Shown piece by piece: positions 4,897 to 59,078 of a DNA stretch of 64,000 nt. The notes under the pieces were generated by a model. It ran no database searches. It was given only the letters and a program-made list of their open reading frames with translations, and was not told the DNA's origin. Origin of the DNA: Minisyncoccota bacterium (lineage in GTDB: Bacteria > Patescibacteriota > Minisyncoccia > Phycocordibacterales > UBA9973); the NCBI GenBank assembly GCA_041665925.1, contig JBAYHW010000001.1, forward strand, positions 166,685-230,684, given 5' to 3'. Numbering within the stretch: the stretch's first letter is position 1; each line of letters opens with the position of its first letter. The translations under genes and the position numbers were made by a program.

Positions 4897-6102
4897 ATGT
4901 TTAGTATTGAAGGTATCATTGCGAATATTGGGATGAGAAGTAGAATTGAAATTGATCAAGCAACTGGCTTGATTTCAAAAGTGGGCACTGTAACCGGAGC
5001 AGCAGACATTGTTTTAAAAGATGAATTAATTTTCCCAGGTTTTATAGATCTACATGTGCATGCGCGGGAAGACATGAGTCATACACAAGACTACAAAGAG
5101 GATTTTAGTTCCGCAGAAAAGGCGGCGATAAATGGAGGGGTAGTAGCTTTCGCTGAAATGCCGAATAACCCTATTCCACCCATTGATGAGAAAAGTTATG
5201 AAACTAAAAAAGAATTAACAAAAAAATCTATTGTGCCCGTAGTACTTTATGCTGGCATTGGTCCAAAGACAAAACCACTAGCAACAAATGTTCCATACAA
5301 AGTTTTTATGGGGAAATCTGTTGGAGATTTATTTTTTACATCGCTAAATGAATTAGAATCAGTAATTAAAAATTATGAAGGGCAATATGTTAGTTTTCAC
5401 TCAGAAGATCCAGAAATTTTAGAAAAAAGTAAAAATGAAACTACTCACGAATCTCAAAGACCACCACGGGCTGAAATTGTGGGTATAGATTTCGCACTTC
5501 AATTGATAGAAAAATATAATCTGTTCGGGAAAATTTGCCACGTTTCCACCATTGAGGGAATGAATAGAATTATAGAAGCGAAAAAACGTGGGATAAATGT
5601 AACAGTAGAGGTAACCCCTCATCATCTATATTTCTCCAAGGCGAATAAAATGTTACAGGTGAATCCCCCGATACGAACTGAAGAGAATTGTGTAGCCTTG
5701 ATAAAATTTTTGAAAAATGGAGATATAGATTATTTAGCGACCGACCATGCTCCACACACGAGAGAAGAAAAAGAAAAGGGGATTTCAGGCATGCCACACC
5801 TGGACACATACGGGCCTTTCGCTACATGGCTTATGCAGGAACAAGGCTTCTCTCCAGAAGAGATTGCAAGGGTGTGTTCAAAAAATCCTGCCAATTTTTT
5901 TAACCATTTTACAGAGAGTAAATATGGAGAGATAAAAGAAGGTTGCATGGGGTCACTTACAATTATTGATATGAATAAACCAATAACTGTTACCAAGGAA
6001 ATATTAAAAACTAAGTGTGCTTGGTCACCGTTTGAGGGCACAACCTTTCCCGGCAGTGTTGCCATAACAATAATAAAAGGCAAAGTATATGATAAAAGAT
6101 AA
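4897..6102 (+). CDS. pyrC: dihydroorotase-like amidohydrolase
   Basis: DLHVHARE and DHAPH metal-binding motifs. First gene of the pyrC-carA-carB-pyrB cluster. The ORF-track TTG at 4855 overlaps the hairpin, so ATG 4897 is preferred. Confidence 0.8.
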   Translation: MFSIEGIIANIGMRSRIEIDQATGLISKVGTVTGAADIVLKDELIFPGFIDLHVHAREDMSHTQDYKEDFSSAEKAAINGGVVAFAEMPNNPIPPIDEKSYETKKELTKKSIVPVVLYAGIGPKTKPLATNVPYKVFMGKSVGDLFFTSLNELESVIKNYEGQYVSFHSEDPEILEKSKNETTHESQRPPRAEIVGIDFALQLIEKYNLFGKICHVSTIEGMNRIIEAKKRGINVTVEVTPHHLYFSKANKMLQVNPPIRTEENCVALIKFLKNGDIDYLATDHAPHTREEKEKGISGMPHLDTYGPFATWLMQEQGFSPEEIARVCSKNPANFFNHFTESKYGEIKEGCMGSLTIIDMNKPITVTKEILKTKCAWSPFEGTTFPGSVAITIIKGKVYDKR

Positions 6103-41445: not shown

Positions 41446-44400
41446 GTGATAATTAATTGCATGAAGAAACTCTTATTGTTTGTTTTTGTGTTAAGTATTT
41501 TTGTACCAAAATTTGTATTTGCGGAAACTTATACTGGGGATATTTACATAAATAGTACTGGAGGAGGTAATTGTACTACCATTGGTGTTTGGGACGATGA
41601 AACTAAAACTTGCACTTTTACTAAAGATCTTTTTGGTCCATTGACCATTGGTTCAGTTGGTATTACCATCGATGGTGCAGGCCATACTATGTCCAGAGAT
41701 ACTCAAGCTGCTTTTTTTCAAAGAAATGGAATGACTGTAGGTGGATCAAATTTTGTTTTAAAAAATATTAATGTTAAAGGTTTCACAAACTGCATTATTT
41801 TTAATAATGGTACAATAAATAGCCGTGTGGAGAATTCTACTATTTCTTCCTGTGGCAGTTATGGAATTTACCTACCTGTTTCTTCCGGGGGACATATTTT
41901 TTTAAATAATAATTTTAATCAAAACTTTCTTGGAATTTTTGTAAATTCGTCCAACAATACAATTGAAGGCAACATATTTTCTGCAAATAATACTTATGGA
42001 ATAAGAATAAACAATGCCTCAAACAATATTATCAAAAATAATATTTTAATTGGGAATTTTACAGGAATTCGTTTTGAATATGGTACGGGAAATAGAATTA
42101 CAGAAAATACTATAGAAAATAGCAAGTCTTATGGTTTGTATGCAATTGGTTCTGGGGTAAACCAAAATTATGTTGTAAATAATAATTTTATTAATAATCG
42201 AGATGGACAAGCTTATACATATCAAATCCAATTGTCTGATGTGTCACCAATTGGTGGTAATTATTGGAGTGATTATGATGCGCCGAGCGAAGGATGTAAT
42301 GATTTAAATATTGATAGTATTTGTGATCAACCAAAATACTTGAACCCATACGATCTTTCGTATGGAGACTTTTATCCTTGGGTGAGGAGAGATGGCTGGA
42401 AAACTGACCCTCCAACCTGTTTTGATGGAATAAAAAATCAAGATGAAACTGATATTGATGAAGGTGGAGTATGCAAAGTCCTTAGCTCCGAAAAATCAAT
42501 CGTTTCGTTTAGTTTTGACAATTTAACACCAAAGGTTGTGGGTGTTATTAATGAAGCTGATCACACCATTTCTGCTACTGTTCCTTTCGGTATTGGTCTC
42601 ACAGATCTTATTCCAAGCATAGCTGTTTCAGCGGGAGCATCTGTTAATCCAGAGAATGGTACTTCTCAAAATTTTACTAATACTGTAATGTACAATGTTA
42701 CAGCAGAGGACAAATCAACTCAGGAATACGCAGTTACAGTGACTTCGTCTTGTACTGTTGATTGCTTTTCTAGTGTGCTTTTTTTGCCCGGACTTGAATC
42801 TAGTAGGCTATACACAAACAGAGAAAGTGGGAGTGAAGATCAACTCTGGGAGCCAAATACAAATAGCGACGTGGAGGATTTATATTTAAACACCGATGGA
42901 ACAAGTAAAAATTTAAATATTTATACGAGAGATATTATAAAAGAAACAAATGTTCCAATCCCCGTTGGTTCGGCGGGGCAAAATATTTATAAAAGTTTTT
43001 CGGCGATGATGGATGTATTGTTTGATGATCATAAAATTGCTGAGTGGAAAGAGTTTGCTTATGATTGGCGGCAAGACGTGCAAGATATTATTGAAAATGG
43101 AACAAAATACCAGAATGAAAATAAATCGCTTGTCGCTACACTGCAAGCTCTAGTCGATTCTTCTAAAAATGGCAAAGTCACAATCGTGGCGCACAGCAAT
43201 GGAGGATTGATTGCGAAAGCTCTTTTGAATAAATTACAAGATGATAAAATCGCAGGAATAAATAATTTGATTGATAATATTGATGTGCTTATTTTAGTAG
43301 CTGTACCAGAAATAGGGACTGCGAGTGCTGTGCCTGCGGTGCTGCATGGGTATAAACAAAATCTAATGGGCGGTTTACTTATGGACGAGGCGCATGCTCG
43401 AGAGCTGGGGAGAAATATGATTAGTGCTTTTGGACTTTTGCCAAGTAGGGAATATCTAAATAGGGTCAATGCTTCACCGGCAACTTTTGTGGATACTGTA
43501 ATTCCTTCAAATGTGACAACGAAACTTGTGCAGGCATTCGGGAGTGCTATCAGTTCTTATGATGAATATAAAGATTTCCTATTTGGAAGAGAGGGGAGAA
43601 CAGAGCCGACAATAAATCAAATAAATTTGCCTATTAGCTTATCACAAGATTTATTTACTAAAGCAGAGACTTTGCATAATATTATCGATGAGTGGGTGCC
43701 ACCAGAGAGTCTGCGGGTTGTAGAAGTCGCAGGGTGGGGGCTAGACACTATTGCAAGCTTTGAATATTACCCAAAGATATGCACACAATCGCTTAATTGT
43801 GGTTTCACAATGGACGAAAGGCCTCGCTTTACAGCAAACGGAGACGGAACCGTTGTAGTGCCTAGCGCTCAATATATGAGTGTTGCTGATAATGCGGAAA
43901 AGTACTGGGTAGATTTAAATAGATATAATCAGCTTCAGTTTTCAAGGACAAAACACGCTTCTATTTTAGAAGTAACTTCACTTTTGGATTTTATTTCAAA
44001 CACGATTCAAGAAATAATACCTAGTGACTCTCCATATTTATCTACTACCGAACCACTAGATACATCAAATCGCTTTTATATTTCTATTCACTCACCAGTA
44101 ACTCTAGATGCTTTTGACACAGAAGGAAATCATACTGGTAAAATTTGTCCAACTAACTCAGACTTTTGTTATGTAGAAGAAAATATTCCGAATTCATCAT
44201 ATTTACAATTTGGAGAAGGAAAATACCTTAATCTCAGAGAAGAGCAAATGTTTAAAGTTAAACTTCAGGGTACAGACGTAGGAACATTTACTTATGAGTC
44301 AGAAAAAGTCTTACCTGATGGGACATCCACCACGTCCTCATTCGTAGATATCCCTGTGACGATACAAACACAAGCAGAGATAACATTAAATGTTAATACT

Positions 44401-44757
44401 CAAACACCTGAGTTAAAATTAGATGTGACTGGAGACGGAGTTTCTGATTTTACTATTACACCTAATGATACCTTTGACCCAATATTATATTTACAAATTA
44501 TGAAAGCCACGATTGATTCGCTGGACATTAGTCCATCTAAGATTAAAGATTTCGATAAAAAAGTAGACAATGTAATAAAGGAGATTAAAAAAGGGAAAAC
44601 AAACAAAGCACAATTAAAAATAGAAAAATTTAAGAGTTATTTCACTAAAACATTATCCAAGCCAGATCCAAAGAAACCAAAACCTAATAAAATATCTAAA
44701 GCTGATGCACAGCTCCTGCTTGATATGTTGAACAAATTATTAGATAATTTAAAATAA
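41446..44757 (+). CDS. secreted multidomain protein: NosD-like parallel beta-helix, Ig-like domain, alpha/beta-hydrolase (lipase-like)
   Basis: Signal peptide; PbH1 repeats (NNxIxxN, GIRINNASNNIIKNN) ending in the GGNYWSDY...DSICDQPKY tail; VAHSNGG nucleophile-elbow motif in the C-terminal half. Confidence 0.65.
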   Translation: MIINCMKKLLLFVFVLSIFVPKFVFAETYTGDIYINSTGGGNCTTIGVWDDETKTCTFTKDLFGPLTIGSVGITIDGAGHTMSRDTQAAFFQRNGMTVGGSNFVLKNINVKGFTNCIIFNNGTINSRVENSTISSCGSYGIYLPVSSGGHIFLNNNFNQNFLGIFVNSSNNTIEGNIFSANNTYGIRINNASNNIIKNNILIGNFTGIRFEYGTGNRITENTIENSKSYGLYAIGSGVNQNYVVNNNFINNRDGQAYTYQIQLSDVSPIGGNYWSDYDAPSEGCNDLNIDSICDQPKYLNPYDLSYGDFYPWVRRDGWKTDPPTCFDGIKNQDETDIDEGGVCKVLSSEKSIVSFSFDNLTPKVVGVINEADHTISATVPFGIGLTDLIPSIAVSAGASVNPENGTSQNFTNTVMYNVTAEDKSTQEYAVTVTSSCTVDCFSSVLFLPGLESSRLYTNRESGSEDQLWEPNTNSDVEDLYLNTDGTSKNLNIYTRDIIKETNVPIPVGSAGQNIYKSFSAMMDVLFDDHKIAEWKEFAYDWRQDVQDIIENGTKYQNENKSLVATLQALVDSSKNGKVTIVAHSNGGLIAKALLNKLQDDKIAGINNLIDNIDVLILVAVPEIGTASAVPAVLHGYKQNLMGGLLMDEAHARELGRNMISAFGLLPSREYLNRVNASPATFVDTVIPSNVTTKLVQAFGSAISSYDEYKDFLFGREGRTEPTINQINLPISLSQDLFTKAETLHNIIDEWVPPESLRVVEVAGWGLDTIASFEYYPKICTQSLNCGFTMDERPRFTANGDGTVVVPSAQYMSVADNAEKYWVDLNRYNQLQFSRTKHASILEVTSLLDFISNTIQEIIPSDSPYLSTTEPLDTSNRFYISIHSPVTLDAFDTEGNHTGKICPTNSDFCYVEENIPNSSYLQFGEGKYLNLREEQMFKVKLQGTDVGTFTYESEKVLPDGTSTTSSFVDIPVTIQTQAEITLNVNTQTPELKLDVTGDGVSDFTITPNDTFDPILYLQIMKATIDSLDISPSKIKDFDKKVDNVIKEIKKGKTNKAQLKIEKFKSYFTKTLSKPDPKKPKPNKISKADAQLLLDMLNKLLDNLK

Positions 44758-45139: not shown

Positions 45140-45157
45140 ACTAGCAAAAAGTTATAC

Positions 45158-45182
45158 ACCTCGGGAGGGGTGCTTTTTTGAG
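45158..45182 (+). terminator. intrinsic terminator
   Basis: GCACC TCGGGAG GGGTGC followed by TTTTTT. Confidence 0.55.
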
Positions 45183-45185
45183 ATA

Positions 45186-45207
45186 AGCGTATGATGGGGG
45201 TGAATAG
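45186..45207. repeat. degenerate third copy of the GCGTAAATGGGGGAATAG motif
   Basis: AGCGTATGATGGGGGTGAATAG at the left edge of the GC-rich island. A related palindromic remnant TTCCCATTGAATGGGGGAA is at 45600-45618. Confidence 0.5.
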
Positions 45208-45221
45208 AAAAAGGGGGAATC

Positions 45222-45389
45222 ATGTACGATGGTGGGTACCCGCTGGTTGGTGTTTGTGAGGACTGCGGAGAAGAGGGCTCGACGTGGTGTGAGGAATTTT
45301 TCCTCGACGTGTGTCTCGTCTGCAAGATAAAGAGACAAGAACAAGCAGCCGAGAGAAGGAAGATGTTCACATCGCAAATGCCTGAGTGA
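45222..45389 (+). CDS. small DksA/TraR-type C4 zinc-finger protein (55 aa)
   Basis: GGGGG Shine-Dalgarno site 6 nt upstream of the ATG. CEDCGEE...CLVC with a following basic/Gln-rich tail resembles the TraR/DksA C4 finger. GC-rich codons. Confidence 0.5.
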   Translation: MYDGGYPLVGVCEDCGEEGSTWCEEFFLDVCLVCKIKRQEQAAERRKMFTSQMPE

Positions 45390-45406
45390 TGCGGGCAGGA
45401 GGAATT

Positions 45407-45610
45407 ATGAATGGTTGCTGTCTTTGCAATCAGGCATTCAATGCCTACCTCCCTGGCCGTTCGCCTAAATCCATGTGGATTTATCAGGCAGAGAAGTTGC
45501 CTGTCCACGAGTCCTGTGGGAGGAGGCTAGCGGTAAAAATCGAAGAACTTGTGAACGAGGACGCGCAGCAGGCATTCATGGGTCCAATTCTGAGAAGAAT
45601 TTCCCATTGA
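45407..45610 (+). CDS. small Cys-rich protein (67 aa)
   Basis: AGGAGG Shine-Dalgarno site upstream; CCLC...HESC cysteine pairs; GC-rich. Confidence 0.4.
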   Translation: MNGCCLCNQAFNAYLPGRSPKSMWIYQAEKLPVHESCGRRLAVKIEELVNEDAQQAFMGPILRRISH

Positions 45611-45736
45611 ATGGGGGAAGGAACATCGCGGGCGTTCACGTTGGACGCCCGTTTCTTTTTGAGAAAAGTTATGCACCTTGCGAGAGGTGTGTTTTATTTT
45701 TAGGCGTATAATTATAGAGAATCGCAGGAGGAAATC

Positions 45737-45985
45737 GTGAGCATCAGTATCAGTTCAATGCTCGCACAGTGTGTGGTGTGCGAGCGACCCATCCCAGAAA
45801 AAGAGGAGGCTAAAAACTTCGAAGGTCGCCAAGTGTGCTCGAGCTGTACGATCGAGCGCGCCGAAAGTAAGGTGACTGGTGAGGTTCTTCTCTTTCTTCG
45901 CGAAGAAGCAGTGGCGAAGCTTCGCGAATTGGTGTTGAGTCGCCACGACAATCACGACGACGGAGGGTTACATCCCCTCAGGTAA
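45737..45985 (+). CDS. small DksA/TraR-type C4 zinc-finger protein (82 aa, GTG start)
   Basis: Extended -10 and AGGAGG upstream. CVVCERPIPEKEEAKNFEGRQVCSSC fits the Cx2Cx18Cx2C spacing with the PIPE motif of TraR/DksA. Confidence 0.6.
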   Translation: MSISISSMLAQCVVCERPIPEKEEAKNFEGRQVCSSCTIERAESKVTGEVLLFLREEAVAKLRELVLSRHDNHDDGGLHPLR

Positions 45986-46017
45986 GCGGGGCCGCTTAAG
46001 CGCCCCGCCTTTTTTTT
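45986..46017 (+). terminator. strong intrinsic terminator
   Basis: GCGGGGC-N9-GCCCCGC followed by T8. Confidence 0.7.
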
Positions 46018-46040: not shown

Positions 46041-46044
46041 TTTT

Positions 46045-46222
46045 ACAAGCGTAGAAGGGGCCCCGTCCGAATAATCCGGGCAGGCATCACCCCTGAGCTT
46101 TGGGAAGAAAACCGCAAGGTGAGTAGAACCCGGTGTTATGAGAAGTAACCAAGGTGGTACCACGGGGAAACTCGTCCTTGAATTATAACTATGGTTGTAA
46201 TTTGAGGACGAGTTTTTTATAT
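46045..46222 (+). promoter_or_regulatory. T-box riboswitch leader, Ile (AUC) specifier, with terminator/antiterminator
   Basis: AACCAAGGTGGTACCACGGGG (46147-46167) matches the T-box consensus with the UGGU bulge. Terminator CTCGTCCT...AGGACGAG + T6 at 46171-46218. ATCA sits just 5' of the closing CCCC of stem I at 46086-46089. Confidence 0.7.
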
Positions 46223-46223
46223 T

Positions 46224-49200
46224 ATGAGCGAAGAAAATACAAATAAATCTGAAGCAGCTTTGCGAGAAGAGCGTATTTTGCAATTTTGGCGCGAGCACAA
46301 AACTTTTGAAAAATCTTTAGCTAAAAAGTCTCCAAAAGGGCACTATGTCTTTTACGATGGGCCACCATTTGCGACAGGGCATATACACTACGGGCACATT
46401 TTAGGCAGTACGGTGAAAGACGTTATCGGCAGATATAAAACTATGCAAGGGTATTATGTGCCGAGAGTCTGGGGCTGGGATTGCCACGGGTTACCTATTG
46501 AGAACATCGTTGAGAAAGAATTAAATATTGCCGGACACAAAGAAATTGAAAAATTAGGTATTGATAAATTTGTGGAGTATGCGCGAAGTAAAGTTCTGCA
46601 ATATGATAAAGATTGGGAAAAGGGGATAGAACGCATCGGGCGCTGGGTAGACTTCCCAGGAGGATATAAGACCATGGACAACACCTTCATTGAGTCCGTA
46701 TGGTGGGCCTTGTCAGAATTTAATAAAAGAAATCTTATTTACGAAGGAGTAAGAGTACTTGCGTATTGTCCGAGATGTGAGACACCGATTGCTAACTCTG
46801 AAATCGCGATGGACAACAGCTATAAAGATATCTCTGATATTTCCGTGTATGTGAAATTTGAGCTTGAGGATGAACCCGGTACGTATCTCTTAGCTTGGAC
46901 GACGACGCCCTGGACGCTCCCTGGGAATACGGCTATCGCTATAAATAAAAACATTGTTTATGTGAAAGTAAAAACCGCCGAGGGAATTTTCATCCTTGCT
47001 AAAGAGACAGTTCCAAACGTTTTAAAAGACAAAGAACACACAGTTTTAGCCGAAGTAAAAAGCGAAGATTTAGTTGGTAAGAAATATAAACCAGTTTTCC
47101 CATATTATCAGAATACTGATGTGGCGAAAAATAAAAATATTTGGCGAGTGTGGCATGCGGACTTCGTAACCATAGAAAAAGGGACAGGAATAGCCCACGA
47201 AGCTCCAGCCTTCGGGGAAGATGATATGAACCTAGCTAAGCAGAATAGTATTCCGTGGATTATCCATGTGGATGAGACTGGAAGATTTAAAACAGAAGTT
47301 ATTGATTTCGCTGGGCAACTTGTAAAACCAAAATCTGCAGAAAAAGATGGGCACCAAAAAGCGGATATTGAAATTATAAAATATTTAGCTAAGGCCAATC
47401 TTCTTTTCGCAAAAGAAAAGATAATTCACTCATACCCTCATTGCATGCGTTGCGAAACGCCGATAATATACTACGCCCTGCCATCTTGGTTTATCAATAT
47501 ACAGAAAGTCAAAGGAAATATTCTTAAACAAGCTAGATACATAAACTGGATTCCTTCACACTTAAAAGAAGGAAGATTTAGAAATATTGCAGAAAATGCA
47601 CCAGACTGGAACATTTCCAGGAATAGGTATTGGGCGAGCCCGTTACCTATTTGGAAATGTGAACAATGTAAAAAACAAACCTTCATCAGTTCCTTAGAAG
47701 ACTTAAAAAACAAAACAAAAAAGTCTGGCAATAAATATTTCGTAATGCGACACGGACAAGCTGAAAACAATGTCACCGATGCGCACAGTAGGGACTTAGA
47801 AATTAATGCCAAATTAACTGAAGTGGGGAGAGGGCAAGTTTTAGATAGTGCTAAAAATATCAAAGATAAAATTGATGTCGTTATCTCTTCTCCATTTAAT
47901 CGGGCAAAAGAGACGATGGAAATAGTGTGTGAGCAAATTGGTTTCCCTGTTGGGAATGTTACATATGATGACAGAATTAGAGAATGGGAAACAAGCACGA
48001 TTTTCGAAGGAAAAGATCGAGCTATTGTGGACAAATATTATGAATTAGACTACTTAGATAATCCGGCAGAGATTCTGGCAGAGGGAGAAAGCTTTGCTCA
48101 AGTGGTAAAACGAGTAGGGCAATTTATCTATGACATAGAGACTAAATATTCAGGCAAAAATATTTTGATTGTTGGGCACGGGGGAGCTACTCAAGCATTG
48201 TGCTTCGTCGTTAAGGGGACGTCTTTTGATTTATTATCCAGCAAAACTAATCCATTTCCGGAATTAAAAAATGCAGAAATAAAAAAACTGGATTTTGTAC
48301 CCCTTCCGCATAATGCTAACTATGAGCTTGATTTACACCGACCGTATATAGATGATGCGGCTCTTGTTTGTGATTGTGGCGCAGACTTAGAACGTATTCC
48401 AGAAGTCTTGGATTGCTGGTTTGAGTCTGGCTCTATGCCATTTGCGCAAGACCACTATCCATTTGAAAATAAAGCTTGGCAGAAAAATAATTTTCCGGCT
48501 GGATTCGTGGCGGAATACATAGGACAGGTTAGAACTTGGTTCTATTACACACACACAGTTTCGACTGTCTTGTTTAACCACACTCCGTTTAAAAATATTG
48601 TCTCTACGGGGACAGTTAGAGCTTCCGACGGTGAGAAAATGTCTAAATCTAAGCACAATTATCCTGACCCGTGGATATTTATAGATAAATACGGGGTGGA
48701 TGCATTGCGTCTCTACTTGATGTCTTCTACATTAATGAAGGGAGAGGATGCCAACTTCTCAGAAAAAACTGTGCAAGAAATTTCGAGTAAAATAGTCGGA
48801 AGACTTTTCAATGTCCTAGCCTTTTATGAGCTCTATCGAGATAAAGAACTAGAAACGGATTATGCCCCAAAATCAAAAAAAATTCTAGATAAATGGATTT
48901 TAGCCAGGTTCTATCAAACACTTAGTGAAATCACTAAAGGCATGGAGAAATACGATATGGCTGAGGCGACGAGGCCCATAGACTTACTAGTGGAAGATAT
49001 TTCTACTTGGTATTTACGACGTTCTCGTGATCGAATTAAAGATGGAGATAGGGAATCGAAGCAAACACTGTATTTCTTATTAAAAAATTTAGCGAGAACG
49101 CTTGCCCCCTTCGCTCCGTTTATGGCTGAAGATATGTGGAGAACATTGAAGAATGATAATGATCCTGAAAGCGTGCATTTAACCAGCTGGCCAAAGAAAA

Positions 49201-49718
49201 GGTTTAGTATTTTTTCTTTTGGTAAACAGAAAATTATGGAAAAAATGGGGACAGTCAGAAGTATCGTGACCTTGGGCTTAGAGGCGAGACAGAAAGCGGG
49301 GATAAAAGTTCGCCAACCATTAAATCACCTAGCTATTGTTGCCGAAGGACTGATGGATGAATACCTTGAAATCATAAAGGATGAGTTAAATATCAAAAAT
49401 ATCTCTTATCTGTTAAAAATAAAATTAGGTATCAGTAAAGTGAACTTGGATACGAATATTACCGAAGAATTAAAACTTGAGGGTGATTATCGTGAGCTGG
49501 TGCGGGCTCTGCAAGACCTAAGAAAGAAAATAGGGCTTACTCCGAGCGACGTCGTAGCACTTATCTTTGAAACAAGCGAAATAGGCAAAAAACTTATTCA
49601 AAAATTCGAAAACGATATGAAGAAAACTGTGCTAGTGTCCAAAATAGAATTTAAAGAAAATGATGGGGAAGAAGTCAAAATAGACGAACTTGATTTCAAA
49701 GTAAAAATAGAAAAATAA
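46224..49718 (+). CDS. ileS: isoleucyl-tRNA synthetase with an inserted histidine-phosphatase (PGAM/SixA-like) domain
   Basis: HYGHIL (HIGH), KMSKS, CP1 editing domain, and the Zn motif WKCEQCKK. About 205 aa (nt ~47700-48330) containing FVMRHGQ, ISSPFNRAKET, and LIVGHGG are inserted between the Zn knuckle and DLHRPYID. Total length 1164 aa. Confidence 0.9.
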   Translation: MSEENTNKSEAALREERILQFWREHKTFEKSLAKKSPKGHYVFYDGPPFATGHIHYGHILGSTVKDVIGRYKTMQGYYVPRVWGWDCHGLPIENIVEKELNIAGHKEIEKLGIDKFVEYARSKVLQYDKDWEKGIERIGRWVDFPGGYKTMDNTFIESVWWALSEFNKRNLIYEGVRVLAYCPRCETPIANSEIAMDNSYKDISDISVYVKFELEDEPGTYLLAWTTTPWTLPGNTAIAINKNIVYVKVKTAEGIFILAKETVPNVLKDKEHTVLAEVKSEDLVGKKYKPVFPYYQNTDVAKNKNIWRVWHADFVTIEKGTGIAHEAPAFGEDDMNLAKQNSIPWIIHVDETGRFKTEVIDFAGQLVKPKSAEKDGHQKADIEIIKYLAKANLLFAKEKIIHSYPHCMRCETPIIYYALPSWFINIQKVKGNILKQARYINWIPSHLKEGRFRNIAENAPDWNISRNRYWASPLPIWKCEQCKKQTFISSLEDLKNKTKKSGNKYFVMRHGQAENNVTDAHSRDLEINAKLTEVGRGQVLDSAKNIKDKIDVVISSPFNRAKETMEIVCEQIGFPVGNVTYDDRIREWETSTIFEGKDRAIVDKYYELDYLDNPAEILAEGESFAQVVKRVGQFIYDIETKYSGKNILIVGHGGATQALCFVVKGTSFDLLSSKTNPFPELKNAEIKKLDFVPLPHNANYELDLHRPYIDDAALVCDCGADLERIPEVLDCWFESGSMPFAQDHYPFENKAWQKNNFPAGFVAEYIGQVRTWFYYTHTVSTVLFNHTPFKNIVSTGTVRASDGEKMSKSKHNYPDPWIFIDKYGVDALRLYLMSSTLMKGEDANFSEKTVQEISSKIVGRLFNVLAFYELYRDKELETDYAPKSKKILDKWILARFYQTLSEITKGMEKYDMAEATRPIDLLVEDISTWYLRRSRDRIKDGDRESKQTLYFLLKNLARTLAPFAPFMAEDMWRTLKNDNDPESVHLTSWPKKRFSIFSFGKQKIMEKMGTVRSIVTLGLEARQKAGIKVRQPLNHLAIVAEGLMDEYLEIIKDELNIKNISYLLKIKLGISKVNLDTNITEELKLEGDYRELVRALQDLRKKIGLTPSDVVALIFETSEIGKKLIQKFENDMKKTVLVSKIEFKENDGEEVKIDELDFKVKIEK

Positions 49719-50360
49719 ATGCGTACTATCCTAGACATTTATAAAGAATATAAAATTATGCCGAATTTGCAGATGCACATGCTCCGGGTGGCAGCTGTGG
49801 CGTCAATTATTTGTGATAATTTTGATGAGCCGCTACCGAAGGAAGATATCATTACGGCGTGTTTGTTGCATGATACCGGAAATATTCTTAAATTTAAATT
49901 AGGTTATTTCCCAGAATTTTTAGAGCCAGAAGGATTAGAATACTGGCAAAAGGTTAAAGATAAATATAAACAAAAATACGGGGAAGACGAGCACGTGGCG
50001 ACATTAAAAATTGCAAAAGAGCTTCAGGCGTCTGATCAAATACTGGAATTAATTTATGCTATTAGTTTCGTACGCGCACCAATAACTGCATCTGAGCAAA
50101 AGTTCGGGGATAAAATAGTTGAATATGCGGATAGTCGAGTAACTCCATTTGGAGTAGTTGGACTCGAAGATAGGTTGATGGATTTGAGAAAACGCTATGA
50201 TCACAAGGGAGGAGATACCCCTGAGCGTCGGGCATACGAACAAGCTGTCAGAGACATTGAACAACAAATTTTTGTAAAATGTTCAATAAAACCTGAAGAT
50301 ATTACGGATAAATCTGTTGCCCCAGTCGTTACTCTCTTGAAAAATTTTGTGATAAAATAA
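49719..50360 (+). CDS. HD-domain phosphohydrolase (YfbR-like 5'-nucleotidase family)
   Basis: HMLRVAAVA...LLHDTG H/HD motif. The ATG immediately follows the ileS stop. Confidence 0.7.
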   Translation: MRTILDIYKEYKIMPNLQMHMLRVAAVASIICDNFDEPLPKEDIITACLLHDTGNILKFKLGYFPEFLEPEGLEYWQKVKDKYKQKYGEDEHVATLKIAKELQASDQILELIYAISFVRAPITASEQKFGDKIVEYADSRVTPFGVVGLEDRLMDLRKRYDHKGGDTPERRAYEQAVRDIEQQIFVKCSIKPEDITDKSVAPVVTLLKNFVIK

Positions 50361-57623: not shown

Positions 57624-57626
57624 ATA

Positions 57627-59078
57627 ATGACTGATAAAAAACCTTTTTACATTACCACAACTCTTCCTTATGTAAATTCAGATCCACATATCGGGTTTGC
57701 TATGGAAATCATACGAGCGGATGCTATTGCTCGGGCTAAAGAGCTTCAAGGCTATGAAGTGTTTTTCAATACAGGAACAGACGAACATGGGACTAAAATT
57801 TTTGAAGCTGCAGAAAAAAGTGGCGTAGAGGTGCAGAAGTACGTAGACCAATACGCAGAAAAATTTAAAGGATTAAAAGATTTACTAAATATTTACCCAA
57901 AGGTGCATTTTATTAGAACTACAGATGTGCACCACGTTGCTGCAGCACAAGAATTCTGGAAAAGGTGCAATGATAATGGTTTTATTTATAAAAAAACTTA
58001 CCAGGCTAAGTATTGCGTAGGGTGTGAGCTAAATAAAACTGATTCTGAGTTAAACGAAGAAGGTCAATGCCCGCTTCATCCCAATAATCAAATACAACTA
58101 ATTGATGAAGAAAATTACTTCTTCAAATTCAGCGCATTTCAAAAGCCACTTTTAGAATTTTATAAAAAGAATCCGACTTTCGTTATACCGGACTTTCGTT
58201 TTAATGAAATAAAATCTTTTGTATCTTCTGGGTTGGAAGATTTTTCTATTTCTCGTCTGAAATCTAAAATGTCGTGGGGGGTGCCGGTGCCGGGGGATGA
58301 AGAACATGTGATGTACGTGTGGTTTGATGCATTGGTTAATTATATTTCGACTCTGGGCTGGCCGGAAGATATAGAAAATTTTGAAAAGTTCTGGATAAAT
58401 GGTACTCCGGTGCAATACGCCGGGAAAGATAACCTGCGCCAGCAGTCTGCAATGTGGCAAGCGATGCTTATGGCAGCGAAGCTACCCAATACTAAGCAAA
58501 TCGTCATTGATGGTTTTATAACCGGTGATGGAGGGGTAAAGATGTCTAAATCAGTAGGCAACGTCATTAGCCCCATAGAAATTGTAGAAGAATATGGAAC
58601 GGATGCACTGCGGTACTTCCTTCTTCGTGAGATTTCTTCTTTCGAAGATAGTCCTTTTACCATGGAACGCTTTAAAGAGGCTTATAATTCAGGACTTGCG
58701 AATGGTCTTGGAAATTTGTCTTCACGTATTCTTACGCTTTCAGAAAAATATTTAGAAAAATGCCCAGAAATTCCGGACGGCTTAATTCCAAGAGAAGAAT
58801 ATTTTAAATTTTTTGATAAATTTGATATTAAACAAGCAGTGGATTTCATTTGGGGTGAAATAGGTGAGCTCGATAAATTTATTCAGGAAACAGAGCCGTT
58901 TAAGGTTGTAAAAGTAGACGCAGAGAAAGGGAAAGAATTAATTGCAGGGATGGTTGTAAGATTATATAAAATAGCTCGTATGCTCAACCCTATAATGCCA
59001 GAAACCAACATTCTGCTTAAAAAACTCATCAAAGAAAATAAAAAACCCGAGAAGCCACTTTTCTTAAGAAAGGATTAA
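57627..59078 (+). CDS. metG: methionyl-tRNA synthetase (short form, no C-terminal tRNA-binding domain)
   Basis: PHIGF (HIGH-type), KMSKS, and a single CxxC...C zinc knuckle. Confidence 0.9.
   Translation: MTDKKPFYITTTLPYVNSDPHIGFAMEIIRADAIARAKELQGYEVFFNTGTDEHGTKIFEAAEKSGVEVQKYVDQYAEKFKGLKDLLNIYPKVHFIRTTDVHHVAAAQEFWKRCNDNGFIYKKTYQAKYCVGCELNKTDSELNEEGQCPLHPNNQIQLIDEENYFFKFSAFQKPLLEFYKKNPTFVIPDFRFNEIKSFVSSGLEDFSISRLKSKMSWGVPVPGDEEHVMYVWFDALVNYISTLGWPEDIENFEKFWINGTPVQYAGKDNLRQQSAMWQAMLMAAKLPNTKQIVIDGFITGDGGVKMSKSVGNVISPIEIVEEYGTDALRYFLLREISSFEDSPFTMERFKEAYNSGLANGLGNLSSRILTLSEKYLEKCPEIPDGLIPREEYFKFFDKFDIKQAVDFIWGEIGELDKFIQETEPFKVVKVDAEKGKELIAGMVVRLYKIARMLNPIMPETNILLKKLIKENKKPEKPLFLRKD

What the first reader, a model, noticed from the sequence alone, without database searches (positions are those of the whole stretch)
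47700..48330. Isoleucyl-tRNA synthetase carrying an in-frame histidine-phosphatase (PGAM/SixA-like) domain insertion
Between the Zn-knuckle WKCEQCKK and the conserved DLHRPYID, where canonical IleS has only about a dozen residues, there is an insert of about 205 aa. It carries the full branch-1 histidine phosphatase motif set: FVMRHGQ (catalytic His in RHG), ISSPFNRAKETME, and LIVGHGG. It is in frame, has no intein junction residues, and brings the protein to 1164 aa. A phosphatase embedded in an aaRS next to the KMSKS domain could act on the aminoacyl-adenylate or AMP/Ap4A, on phospho-proteins, or serve regulation. I cannot recall a described IleS with this architecture.
Basis: partly seen in the sequence, partly recalled or inferred. 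Interest (0 to 1): 0.8.

Follow-up and report, generated by a model that had tools for sequence, protein, structure and literature searches.

The report
Isoleucyl-tRNA synthetase with embedded phosphatase
The enzyme that loads isoleucine onto tRNA here carries a complete, apparently active phosphatase spliced into one of its surface loops. Related bacteria encode the same phosphatase as a separate gene directly in front of the synthetase gene, so it looks like an undescribed partner of this enzyme.

Summary
ORF 46224-49718 (+) is a type-2 IleRS of 1164 aa. About 200 residues (aa 497-695) are inserted in the CP3 Zn-knuckle loop and form a full branch-1 histidine phosphatase (PF00300, E 4e-27; AF2 pLDDT 93; folds like PhoE, PspA, GpgP and CobC, not dPGM or SixA).

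- **Conservation:** the catalytic residues R509, H510, R560, E587 and H652 are invariant in 120 homologues. The insert averages 43% identity against 71% for the synthetase core.
- **Spread:** all 80 best species-level genome hits, mostly labelled Paceibacteria or Patescibacteria, carry the embedded form.
- **Operon link:** the nearest free-standing ~190-aa phosphatases sit in an argS-phosphatase-ileS cluster. ileS or argS lies within 300 nt in 65 of 71 metagenomic loci.
- **Other architectures:** some IleRS carry the domain at other loops or in several copies, and one partial ValRS carries four.
- **Regulation:** a sub-threshold T-box leader precedes ileS.

I conclude it is an active accessory phosphatase coupled to IleRS. 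Its substrate is unknown; my best guess is a nucleotide or tRNA-end phosphate. No paper describing this was found. It is a new variant of a known kind.

The parts
46043..46215 (+). Candidate T-box leader with its terminator hairpin (arms 46168-46189 and 46194-46215, followed by a T run), ending just before the ileS ATG
   Evidence: RF00230 covers the full model (1-219) with a shortened stem I, at 34.2 bits and E 2.6e-6, below the gathering score of 93. The T-box sequence AAGGUGGUACCACGGG is present, and GCAUCA could hold an AUC (Ile) specifier (read by eye). The same sub-threshold hit lies upstream of ileS in L001 (46.4 bits) and L003 (40 bits).
46224..49718 (+). ileS: type-2 isoleucyl-tRNA synthetase, 1164 aa, stop codon included
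   Evidence: ORF. TIGR00392 ileS scores 831 bits against a cut-off of 621.4. The best PDB relatives are IleRS2 8c8v (E 5e-219), eukaryotic IleRS and T. thermophilus 1ile. HYGH lies at nt 46386-46397, TTTPWT of the editing domain at 46899-46916 and KMSKS at 48636-48650.
47658..47669 (+). First half of the CP3 Zn knuckle (C479-x-x-C482)
   Evidence: Coordinates. All four Cys (479, 482, 716, 718) are present in 83 of 120 homologues and are replaced together in the other 37. CP3 of T. thermophilus IleRS carries a Zn motif (PMC7191050).
47712..48308 (+). Inserted histidine phosphatase domain (aa 497-695)
   Evidence: Boundaries come from the PDB alignment. Pfam PF00300 E 4e-27. The AF2 model of aa 465-735 has pLDDT 93.2 and pTM 0.89. 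Foldseek places it with Rv2419c GpgP, PspA, HFP 9mmh, PhoE and CobC, at target-normalised TM 0.70-0.75 over about 198 columns.
47748..47756 (+). RHG motif (R509, H510 as the predicted phospho-acceptor, G511)
   Evidence: Invariant in 120 of 120 homologues. R and H are kept in every copy at every insertion site.
47901..47903 (+). R560, second phosphate-binding arginine
   Evidence: Invariant.
47982..47984 (+). E587, predicted proton donor
   Evidence: Invariant in 120 homologues. It is E in every embedded copy examined and D in four free-standing relatives.
48177..48179 (+). H652, second catalytic histidine (LIVGHGG)
   Evidence: Invariant. The next residues are variable and are not the HGNS of dPGM.
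48330..48377 (+). Second half of CP3: DLHRPYID and C716-x-C718
   Evidence: This stretch aligns to ELHKPYVDD...CPVC of 8c8v.
48888..49715 (+). Anticodon-binding domain (aa 889-1033) and type-2 C-terminal domain DUF5915 (aa 1072-1164)
   Evidence: Pfam PF08264 E 4.6e-31 and PF19302 E 2e-16.
49719..50360 (+). HD-domain phosphohydrolase gene that starts on the base after the ileS stop codon. It is fused to the IleRS C-terminus in a subclade
   Evidence: Pfam PF01966 E 5e-7. H20, H51, D52 and D138 are invariant in 106 homologues. AF2 pLDDT is 96.6, with no close PDB fold. Fusions occur in P0002, P0054, P0056, P0061, P0079 and P0115, and in L008 and L016. An HD gene lies within 6 kb in only 4 of 80 genome loci, so this link is local to the subclade.

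Best explanation
The gene is the housekeeping, T-box-controlled type-2 IleRS of a Paceibacteria-type (CPR) bacterium. Its CP3 subdomain hosts a complete and, by all sequence and fold criteria, catalytically competent branch-1 histidine phosphatase of the small PhoE/PspA/GpgP/CobC type.

The phosphatase is not a random passenger. In related bacteria the same protein is a separate ~190-aa gene wedged between argS and ileS. Here it has been moved into ileS itself. In other lineages it sits in other IleRS loops or in several copies.

Shown:
- The architecture and the insertion point.
- An intact synthetase and an intact phosphatase catalytic core.
- The conserved operon and fusion linkage.

Inferred: IleRS charges tRNA-Ile as usual, while the tethered domain uses H510 to take a phosphoryl group from a phosphomonoester and E587 to release it. 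Only the phosphate-binding and catalytic residues are conserved, and the specificity 'cap' is free to vary. I therefore think the rest of the substrate is held by the synthetase. The most likely substrate is a phosphate on a nucleotide ribose handled during aminoacylation: either a blocking 2'/3'-(pyro)phosphate on the tRNA acceptor end, or an adenine-nucleotide by-product. The substrate itself is not identified.
For: - **Architecture:**
- **Fold:** AF2 pLDDT 93 and Foldseek hits to small-molecule histidine phosphatases.
- **Selection on catalysis:** R509, H510, G511, R560, E587 and H652 are 100% conserved and N516 is 99% conserved in 120 homologues. Mean identity to the window protein is 43% for the insert, 24% for the cap (aa 588-621) and 71% for the IleRS core.
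- **Spread:** all 120 best homologues carry PF00300. At least 571 confirmed stretches were found in species-representative genomes, and all 80 of the best are embedded in an IleRS ORF.
- **Operon link:** of 80 metagenomic loci fetched with free-standing relatives, 71 are free-standing. Of these, 50 have argS directly upstream and ileS directly downstream, 7 more have ileS adjacent, 8 more have argS adjacent, 5 lack flank and 1 has both genes about 1 kb away. Examples are L088 and L091.
- **Recurrence:** the domain occurs at three further loops and as tandem copies. Examples are P0134 and P0200 (sites B+C, seen on six contigs of up to 1.06 Mb), P0213 and P0183 (A+C), P0172 (A+A), and P0125, a ValRS with four copies. 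Every copy keeps the R-H-R-E-H core.
- **Remodelling:** the A, A+C, A+A and B+C forms group in one IleRS clade with 94-100% bootstrap support.
- **Housekeeping role:** a T-box-like leader lies upstream of ileS here and in two relatives.
Against: - No biochemical data exist, and no substrate can be read from the sequence.
- The closest solved relatives all act on small metabolites, not on RNA or proteins.
- The domain is tolerated at four different places in the synthetase. A strict geometric hand-off from the synthetic site is therefore unlikely.
- I could not obtain coordinates of a full-length model, so the distance from H510 to the tRNA 3'-end path is unknown.
- Operon membership alone can reflect co-expression of unrelated housekeeping genes. 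CPR proteins fuse promiscuously: their TsaC is fused to Ogt, TruB, a 2H phosphoesterase, NUDIX, GNAT and this phosphatase.
- The adjacent HD hydrolase, which might have suggested a two-step phosphoester pathway, is confined to a subclade.
- No hit to known defence systems was found.
Confidence: 0.45

Rival explanations
1. Housekeeping metabolic phosphatase that merely rides with ileS. The enzyme dephosphorylates an ordinary small metabolite, as PhoE, PspA, GpgP or CobC do. It sits in the argS-ileS operon for constitutive expression and was later fused by chance in genomes prone to fusions. It has no mechanistic link to aminoacylation.
For: All close structural and sequence relatives are small-metabolite phosphatases. 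CPR genomes show many seemingly arbitrary fusions, for example of TsaC. Insertion at several different loops suggests that precise geometry does not matter.
Against: The substrate-specificity cap is the least conserved part (24% identity, with indels), which is unusual for a metabolite-specific enzyme. The same domain entered IleRS at four or more sites, multiplied to 2-4 copies, and also entered ValRS. No long protein of another kind appears among the 150 nearest cluster representatives except one TsaC fusion. The gene order argS-phosphatase-ileS is essentially invariant over 71 loci.
Confidence: 0.25
2. Built-in protein phosphatase. The domain removes phosphate from IleRS itself (for example from the serines of the KMSKS loop) or from neighbouring translation proteins. 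This would reverse inhibitory phosphorylation by kinases such as HipA-type toxins, which are known, from my own knowledge, to phosphorylate other aaRS.
For: Members of the superfamily (SixA, PGAM5, Sts-1; own knowledge) act on phospho-proteins. Only phosphate-contacting residues are conserved, which fits a substrate presented in cis. Several copies spread around the catalytic body would all be able to reach it.
Against: The fold has the full cap of small-molecule enzymes and does not resemble the short SixA form (TIGR00249 35 bits against a cut-off of 74.5, matching only the first ~70 residues). No kinase was noticed next to ileS in the neighbourhoods listed. There is no evidence that IleRS is phosphorylated in these organisms.
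Confidence: 0.12
3. Catalytically silent structural or scaffolding module, for example one that bridges ArgRS and IleRS or binds a phosphorylated ligand as a sensor without turnover.
For: The gene lies between two synthetase genes. The catalytic residues are also the phosphate-binding residues, so their conservation alone does not prove turnover.
Against: The nucleophile His, both Arg, the proton-donor Glu and the second His are all invariant, including in every copy of multi-copy proteins. A pure scaffold would not need the Glu.
Confidence: 0.06
4. Artefact or selfish element: a chimeric assembly, a frameshifted neighbouring gene, or an intein-like mobile insertion.
For: The same domain appears at several sites in one host protein, as inteins do.
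Against: The insert is in frame and present in more than 120 protein clusters and 80 species genomes from independent assemblies. Pfam finds no Hint or endonuclease domain. The histidine-phosphatase fold fills the whole insert. The junctions lack the Cys/Ser at position 1 and the Cys/Ser/Thr at position +1. The 'HN' at aa 696-697 aligns with canonical CP3 sequence.
Confidence: 0.01

Closest known systems
Type-2 (eukaryote-like, mupirocin-resistant type) bacterial IleRS, e.g. Priestia megaterium IleRS2 (PDB 8c8v) and MupA/MupB
   Same: The whole synthetase body aligns: Rossmann fold, CP1 editing domain, CP2, CP3, KMSKS, anticodon-binding domain and the DUF5915 C-terminal domain.
   Different: About 200 extra residues forming a second enzyme lie inside CP3, between residues equivalent to 476 and 480 of 8c8v.
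Small branch-1 histidine phosphatases: PhoE (1h2e/1ebb), phosphoserine phosphatase PspA (4ij5/4ij6), glucosyl-3-phosphoglycerate phosphatase Rv2419c (4pz9), riboflavin-pathway HFP (9mmh), CobC (3hjg, 6e4b)
   Same: Same fold and size, with the same RHG...R...E...H catalytic set.
   Different: Identity is only 20-25%. The domain scores below every NCBIfam equivalog cut-off. It is embedded in, or operon-linked to, an aaRS, whereas those are free-standing metabolic enzymes. Its cap region is not conserved among orthologues.
Rv2228c-type bifunctional RNase HI / acid phosphatase (NCBIfam NF005567)
   Same: This is the best NCBIfam match of the insert (76.8 bits). It is a precedent for a CobC-like histidine phosphatase fused to an enzyme that acts on nucleic acid.
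   Different: The score is far below the cut-off of 326. That protein is an end-to-end fusion, not an insertion, and its partner is RNase H.
IleRS with an extra catalytic domain: NCBIfam NF040702 'isoleucine--tRNA ligase, N-acetyltransferase domain-containing'
   Same: It is an IleRS that carries a second, unrelated enzymatic domain (one search lists the model).
   Different: The added domain is different (GNAT), and this protein is not a member (305 bits against a cut-off of 1999).
CP1 editing domain and the leucine-specific domain of class Ia synthetases (own knowledge)
   Same: These are catalytic or functional modules inserted into loops of the Rossmann-fold body of IleRS, ValRS and LeuRS.
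   Different: Those are ancient, universal, and act on aminoacyl-tRNA or the adenylate. This is a lineage-specific phosphomonoesterase fold never reported in an aaRS in the papers searched.

Membership tests
Isoleucyl-tRNA synthetase (class Ia, type 2) | Whole-protein match to the curated ileS equivalog model above its cut-off | tested here: met
   TIGR00392 scores 831.2 bits against 621.4.
Isoleucyl-tRNA synthetase (class Ia, type 2) | HIGH-type and KMSKS signature motifs, and the CP1 editing domain with its Thr-rich motif | tested here: met
   HYGH at aa 55-58, KMSKS at 805-809 and TTTPWT at nt 46899-46916. aa 199-406 match isolated IleRS editing-domain structures 1wk8 and 1udz.
Isoleucyl-tRNA synthetase (class Ia, type 2) | Type-2 C-terminal region (DUF5915) and closest relatives among IleRS2, eukaryotic and archaeal-type enzymes | tested here: met
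   PF19302 E 2e-16. Type-2 structures match at E 1e-181 to 1e-219, against 1e-72 to 1e-82 for type-1 structures.
Isoleucyl-tRNA synthetase (class Ia, type 2) | Charges tRNA-Ile and edits Val | not testable with these tools
   This needs aminoacylation and editing assays.
Histidine phosphatase superfamily, branch 1 (PF00300) | Pfam model above the gathering score | tested here: met
   95.6 bits against 21.7, E 4e-27, aa 506-670.
Histidine phosphatase superfamily, branch 1 (PF00300) | Catalytic core: RHG nucleophile His, two Arg, proton-donor acid and second His | tested here: met
   R509, H510, R560, E587 and H652 are invariant in 120 homologues and in all copies elsewhere.
Histidine phosphatase superfamily, branch 1 (PF00300) | Alpha/beta fold of the superfamily | tested here: met
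   The AF2 model has pLDDT 93.2. Foldseek gives probability 1.00 and target-normalised TM 0.70-0.75 to several solved members.
Histidine phosphatase superfamily, branch 1 (PF00300) | Phosphatase activity through a phospho-histidine intermediate | not testable with these tools
   This needs an enzyme assay with an H510A control.
Cofactor-dependent phosphoglycerate mutase (dPGM) | Match to dPGM family models above cut-off, with the HGNS motif after the second His | tested here: not met
   pgm_1 scores 27.5 against 81.7, dPGM_arch 58.3 against 225 and GpmB 37.3 against 261. The motif here is HGGA, and positions 653-654 vary among homologues.
SixA phosphohistidine phosphatase | Match to TIGR00249 above cut-off, with the short (~155 aa) cap-less form | tested here: not met
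   35 bits against 74.5, and only the first ~70 residues align. The domain is ~200 aa with a cap.
CobC alpha-ribazole phosphatase | Match to TIGR03162 above cut-off | tested here: not met
   63.3 bits against 162.9.
Intein | Hint fold, a Cys/Ser first residue, and a terminal HN followed by Cys/Ser/Thr | tested here: not met
   Pfam finds no Hint or endonuclease domain. The whole insert is a histidine phosphatase fold. The junction residues are K497/S501 and HN-A698, and the HN is part of canonical CP3.
T-box leader (RF00230) upstream of ileS | Covariance-model score above the gathering score, a specifier codon matching the regulated gene, and a T-box sequence with terminator/antiterminator | tested here: inconclusive
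   34.2 bits against 93 (E 2.6e-6), with the full model covered and a short stem I. The T-box sequence, the terminator and a possible AUC specifier were seen by eye. Similar hits occur at the same place in L001 and L003.

The most novel reading that the evidence does not exclude
The phosphatase is a third catalytic site of the synthetase that 'heals' the tRNA acceptor end. It would remove a 2'/3'-phosphate or pyrophosphate from A76, so that damaged tRNA-Ile can be recharged on the spot. Such a group is placed on tRNA by toxic RelA-SpoT-type enzymes, which some HD-type hydrolases are known to reverse (bioRxiv 10.1101/2021.04.30.441581). It can also be left after nuclease damage. A variant of the same idea is that the domain destroys phosphorylated adenylate-mimic inhibitors aimed at IleRS. 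Either way, this would be a new class of aaRS-embedded repair or immunity activity.
Probability: 0.15. Interest if true: 0.9.

Novelty: new variant of a known kind. Interest (0 to 1): 0.72.

Why it matters
Aminoacyl-tRNA synthetases are among the best-studied enzymes. Their known inserted catalytic modules are editing domains. A conserved, apparently active phosphomonoesterase would point to an unrecognised phosphate-removal step connected with tRNA charging. It is encoded next to ileS in many bacteria, spliced into its CP3 loop in the Paceibacteria-type genomes sampled here (at least 80 species-level genomes), and multiplied at other loops elsewhere.

It also offers a clean natural experiment with three states of the same partnership: separate gene, single insertion and multiple insertions. 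It gives a directly testable protein for which the assays are standard. Finally, it is a practical marker. In the neighbourhoods examined, automatic annotation calls these proteins only 'class I tRNA ligase family protein' or 'isoleucyl-tRNA synthetase'.

Tried and rejected
- **Intein or mobile insertion:** rejected. There is no Hint domain, the junctions are wrong and the fold fills the insert.
- **dPGM, SixA or CobC membership:** rejected on curated cut-offs and motif details.
- **HD neighbour as a general partner:** I followed this with a homologue search, an AF2 model and a fold search. It is an intact HD hydrolase without a close solved relative and is truly fused in a subclade. It lies near ileS in only 4 of 80 genome loci, so it cannot explain the insert in general.
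- **TsaC-phosphatase fusion (P0197) as a clue to adenylate or PPi chemistry:** weakened, because CPR TsaC is fused to many unrelated domains.
- **T-box in front of the free-standing phosphatase genes:** not found in L088 or L090.
- **Defence-system and phage libraries:** no PADLOC hit, and only an unannotated PHROG.
- **Domain tree of the phosphatase copies (NJ, no support values):** too star-like to count insertion events.
- **IleRS core tree:** it resolves only the clade with the A, A+C, A+A and B+C forms. The placement of the insert-less IleRS is weak at 49-68%. One bootstrap run timed out.
- **Full-window Rfam search at gathering threshold:** found nothing.
- **Literature searches:** five queries found no description of this architecture.
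- **Not done:** I could not obtain model coordinates, so no distance between the phosphatase site and the synthetic or editing sites was measured.
Full report
**1. The observation**

The window has one long ORF at 46224-49718 (+) of 1164 aa. Pfam finds tRNA-synt_1 in two pieces, Anticodon_1 and DUF5915. Between the two synthetase pieces it finds His_Phos_1 (PF00300) at aa 506-670, with E 4e-27.

The protein passes the curated ileS model (831 bits against a cut-off of 621). Its closest solved relatives are type-2 IleRS (P. megaterium IleRS2 8c8v, E 5e-219), then eukaryotic IleRS and T. thermophilus IleRS. In the 8c8v alignment, query 3-496 pairs with residues 3-476 and query 696-1061 with residues 480-848. 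About 200 residues (aa 497-695, nt 47712-48308) are therefore inserted in a loop that is normally 3-4 residues long.

The loop lies between the CxxC (C479, C482) and the DLHRPY...CxC (C716, C718) halves of a Zn knuckle. By the domain boundaries given for Candida IleRS, this is the CP3 subdomain, which is Zn-binding in T. thermophilus IleRS and structurally variable among IleRS (PMC7191050). HYGH, KMSKS and the editing-domain motif TTTPWT are intact.

**2. What the insert is**

An AlphaFold2 model of aa 465-735, built on 120 homologues, is confident (pLDDT 93.2, pTM 0.89). It shows the CP3 beta-hairpins flanking a compact alpha/beta domain. Foldseek against the PDB returns only branch-1 histidine phosphatases of the ~200-aa type:
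- Rv2419c glucosyl-3-phosphoglycerate phosphatase
- PspA phosphoserine phosphatase
- the riboflavin-pathway HFP (9mmh)
- PhoE
- CobC

These match at target-normalised TM 0.70-0.75, about 198 aligned columns and 20-25% identity. Sequence searches agree. All NCBIfam equivalogs (dPGM, GpmB, CobC, PspA, SixA) fall far below their cut-offs. The motif after the second histidine is HGGA and is variable, not the HGNS of mutases. So the domain is a generic phosphomonoesterase type. It is neither a mutase nor SixA-like.

**3. Is it functional?**

In a MAFFT alignment of the 120 closest homologues (61-100% identical overall), R509, H510, G511, G535, S556, R560, E587 and H652 are invariant. N516 is 99% and R630 is 98% conserved. 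Mean identity to the window protein is 43% in the insert and only 24% in the cap region (aa 588-621, with indels), against 71% in the synthetase core. Selection thus acts on phosphate binding and catalysis but hardly on the part that usually recognises the rest of the substrate.

**4. Distribution**

All 120 best homologues carry PF00300. Where a source names an organism, the names are Paceibacterota, Pacebacteria, Nomurabacteria, Patescibacteria or simply 'bacterium'. The best 80 come mostly from records labelled Nomurabacteria, Paceibacterota, Zambryskiibacteria, Kaiserbacteria, Minisyncoccia, Parcubacteria or Patescibacteria. About 25 are labelled 'uncultured Candidatus Saccharibacteria' and one is labelled Nitrospira. 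In all 80 the domain lies inside an IleRS ORF.

The window holds only one IleRS and one such phosphatase. Another class I synthetase at 57624-59075 has no insert.

**5. The link to IleRS goes beyond this fusion**

A search of 1.84 billion cluster representatives with the insert gave 370 hits below 1e-10. Of the best 150, 92 have IleRS-like flanks, one of which proved to be a ValRS. Most of the rest are ~190-200-aa free-standing proteins or fragments.

Look-ups of six free-standing ones placed five of them next to argS and/or ileS. For example, L091 reads argS, phosphatase (5001-5570), then a canonical 931-aa ileS (from 5572), recO and CLIPPER, the same synteny as relatives of the window. L088 has the phosphatase 8 nt upstream of a 955-aa ileS.

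A metagenome scan seeded with free-standing sequences returned 80 loci, 71 free-standing and 9 embedded. The 71 free-standing loci break down as follows:

| Arrangement | Loci |
|---|---|
| argS directly upstream and ileS directly downstream | 50 |
| ileS adjacent only | 7 |
| argS adjacent only (four have no ileS in the locus, three of these with the phosphatase gene at the contig end; in three ileS lies 1-2 kb further; in one, L119, the contig continues about 1.2 kb without an ileS hit) | 8 |
| Too little flank to judge | 5 |
| Both genes about 1 kb away | 1 |

In the embedded loci, argS is directly upstream of ileS. The separate gene and the insert are thus two states of one conserved partnership.

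**6. Other architectures**

Local HMM mapping showed IleRS proteins with the domain at several places:
- **Site A:** the CP3 loop described here.
- **Site B:** a loop of the second Rossmann half (about aa 742-757 of the window protein).
- **Site C:** the junction to the anticodon-binding domain (about aa 871-885).
- **Tandem copies at site A.**

P0134 (1419 aa, B+C, nothing at A) occurs on six contigs of up to 1.06 Mb. It passes the ileS cut-off and comes from a 48% GC genome with POR, purA, DAHP synthase and SLH genes nearby, so it is probably outside Paceibacteria.

P0125, a partial protein, is a ValRS by NCBIfam (valS 410 bits against ileS 199). It has four copies, one in a CP2-like position and three in tandem. 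Every copy keeps the R-H-R-E-H core.

In a bootstrapped NJ tree of IleRS cores, the A, A+C, A+A and B+C forms fall in one clade (94-100%), so the architecture was remodelled within a lineage. The position of the insert-less IleRS is not resolved (49-68%), so the number of insertion events is open.

**7. Context in the window**

Upstream of ileS there is a sub-threshold but full-length T-box hit (46043-46182, 34 bits, E 2.6e-6). It has the T-box sequence, a terminator hairpin (46168-46215) and a possible AUC specifier. Similar hits sit at the same place in L001 and L003. This fits a housekeeping ileS controlled by tRNA-Ile charging.

Directly downstream (49719-50360) is an HD-domain gene with an invariant H...HD...D set and a confident model, but no close solved relative. 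It is fused to the IleRS C-terminus in several relatives. It is near ileS in only 4 of 80 genome loci, so it is a subclade feature.

**8. How it most likely works**

Shown: the synthetase is intact, the phosphatase core is intact and under selection, and the two proteins are linked by operon, by fusion and by repeated insertion.

Inferred: the domain is an active phosphomonoesterase that serves IleRS. The cap is unconstrained and the domain works from several positions around the catalytic body. I therefore favour a substrate held by the synthetase or its tRNA: a phosphate on a nucleotide ribose, either at the tRNA acceptor end or on an adenine-nucleotide by-product. This is a guess, with about 0.45 for the whole statement and much less for any single substrate.

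The main rival is an ordinary metabolic phosphatase that merely travels with ileS (0.25). This is plausible because CPR proteins fuse promiscuously. It fits poorly with the repeated, multi-site, multi-copy insertions into IleRS and ValRS. A cis-acting protein phosphatase (0.12), a silent scaffold (0.06) and an artefact or intein (0.01) follow.

**9. Novelty**

Five full-text searches found no paper describing a histidine phosphatase in or next to an aaRS. The sequences are in public databases under generic names. NCBIfam has a special model for an IleRS with a GNAT domain but none for this form. I rate it a new variant of a known kind, with interest 0.72. It would surprise a synthetase specialist, it is widespread, and it is directly testable.

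Noticed in passing
window 46043-46215: Compact T-box-like leader with a short stem I, a terminator hairpin and a possible AUC (Ile) specifier directly upstream of ileS. It scores below Rfam's gathering score but recurs upstream of ileS in L001 (4822-4950) and L003 (4839-4954).
   Followed up: partly
window about 45150-46010: An island of 46-54% GC in a window that averages 38.5% GC, between a small membrane-protein gene and ileS. It holds three short Cys-rich (zinc-ribbon-like) ORFs, at about 45222-45390, about 45407-45610 and 45737-45985, with similar-looking upstream sequences and a strong terminator palindrome at 45984-46011. There is no Rfam match. It may be a foreign insertion.
   Followed up: partly
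window 49719-50360; fusions in P0002, P0054, P0056, P0061, P0079, P0115, L008, L016: An HD-domain phosphohydrolase of a Paceibacteria-specific family (911 homologues, H...HD...D invariant, no close solved structure). It starts on the base after the ileS stop. In a subclade it is fused to IleRS, replacing the last ~50 residues.
   Followed up: yes
P0125 (partial protein, contigs up to 3.9 kb): A valyl-tRNA synthetase (valS 410 bits) carrying four histidine phosphatase domains, one in a CP2-like position and three in tandem in the CP3-like position. It is the only ValRS among the 150 nearest cluster representatives.
   Followed up: partly
P0197, P0398-P0400 and other hits: Patescibacterial TsaC/YrdC (t6A synthesis) is fused to many different partners: Ogt (most common), TruB, a 2H/CPDase phosphoesterase, NUDIX, GNAT, a DNA glycosylase and, in four clusters, this same phosphatase family.
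   Followed up: partly
window 47658-47669 and 48369-48377 (C479, C482, C716, C718): The four Cys of the CP3 Zn knuckle are present in 83 of 120 homologues and are replaced together (mostly by S, a gap, D and N/K) in the other 37. Zn binding in CP3 therefore seems dispensable when the phosphatase is inserted.
   Followed up: no
L093 2685-5609 (- strand): In this locus ileS is convergent to the free-standing phosphatase gene and is split into two ORFs near the CP core. This may be a frameshift, an assembly error or a genuine split gene.
   Followed up: no
window 41446-44757: A 1103-aa protein with an N-terminal hydrophobic segment (a likely signal peptide, by eye). It combines a NosD-type beta-helix region with an LCAT-like lipase or acyltransferase domain. 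The same gene precedes ileS in L003.
   Followed up: no
L001 and L002 upstream of ileS: In relatives, ileS lies in a region rich in nucleotide-housekeeping genes: several NUDIX genes, MazG, thymidylate kinase, dUTPase and NDK.
   Followed up: no
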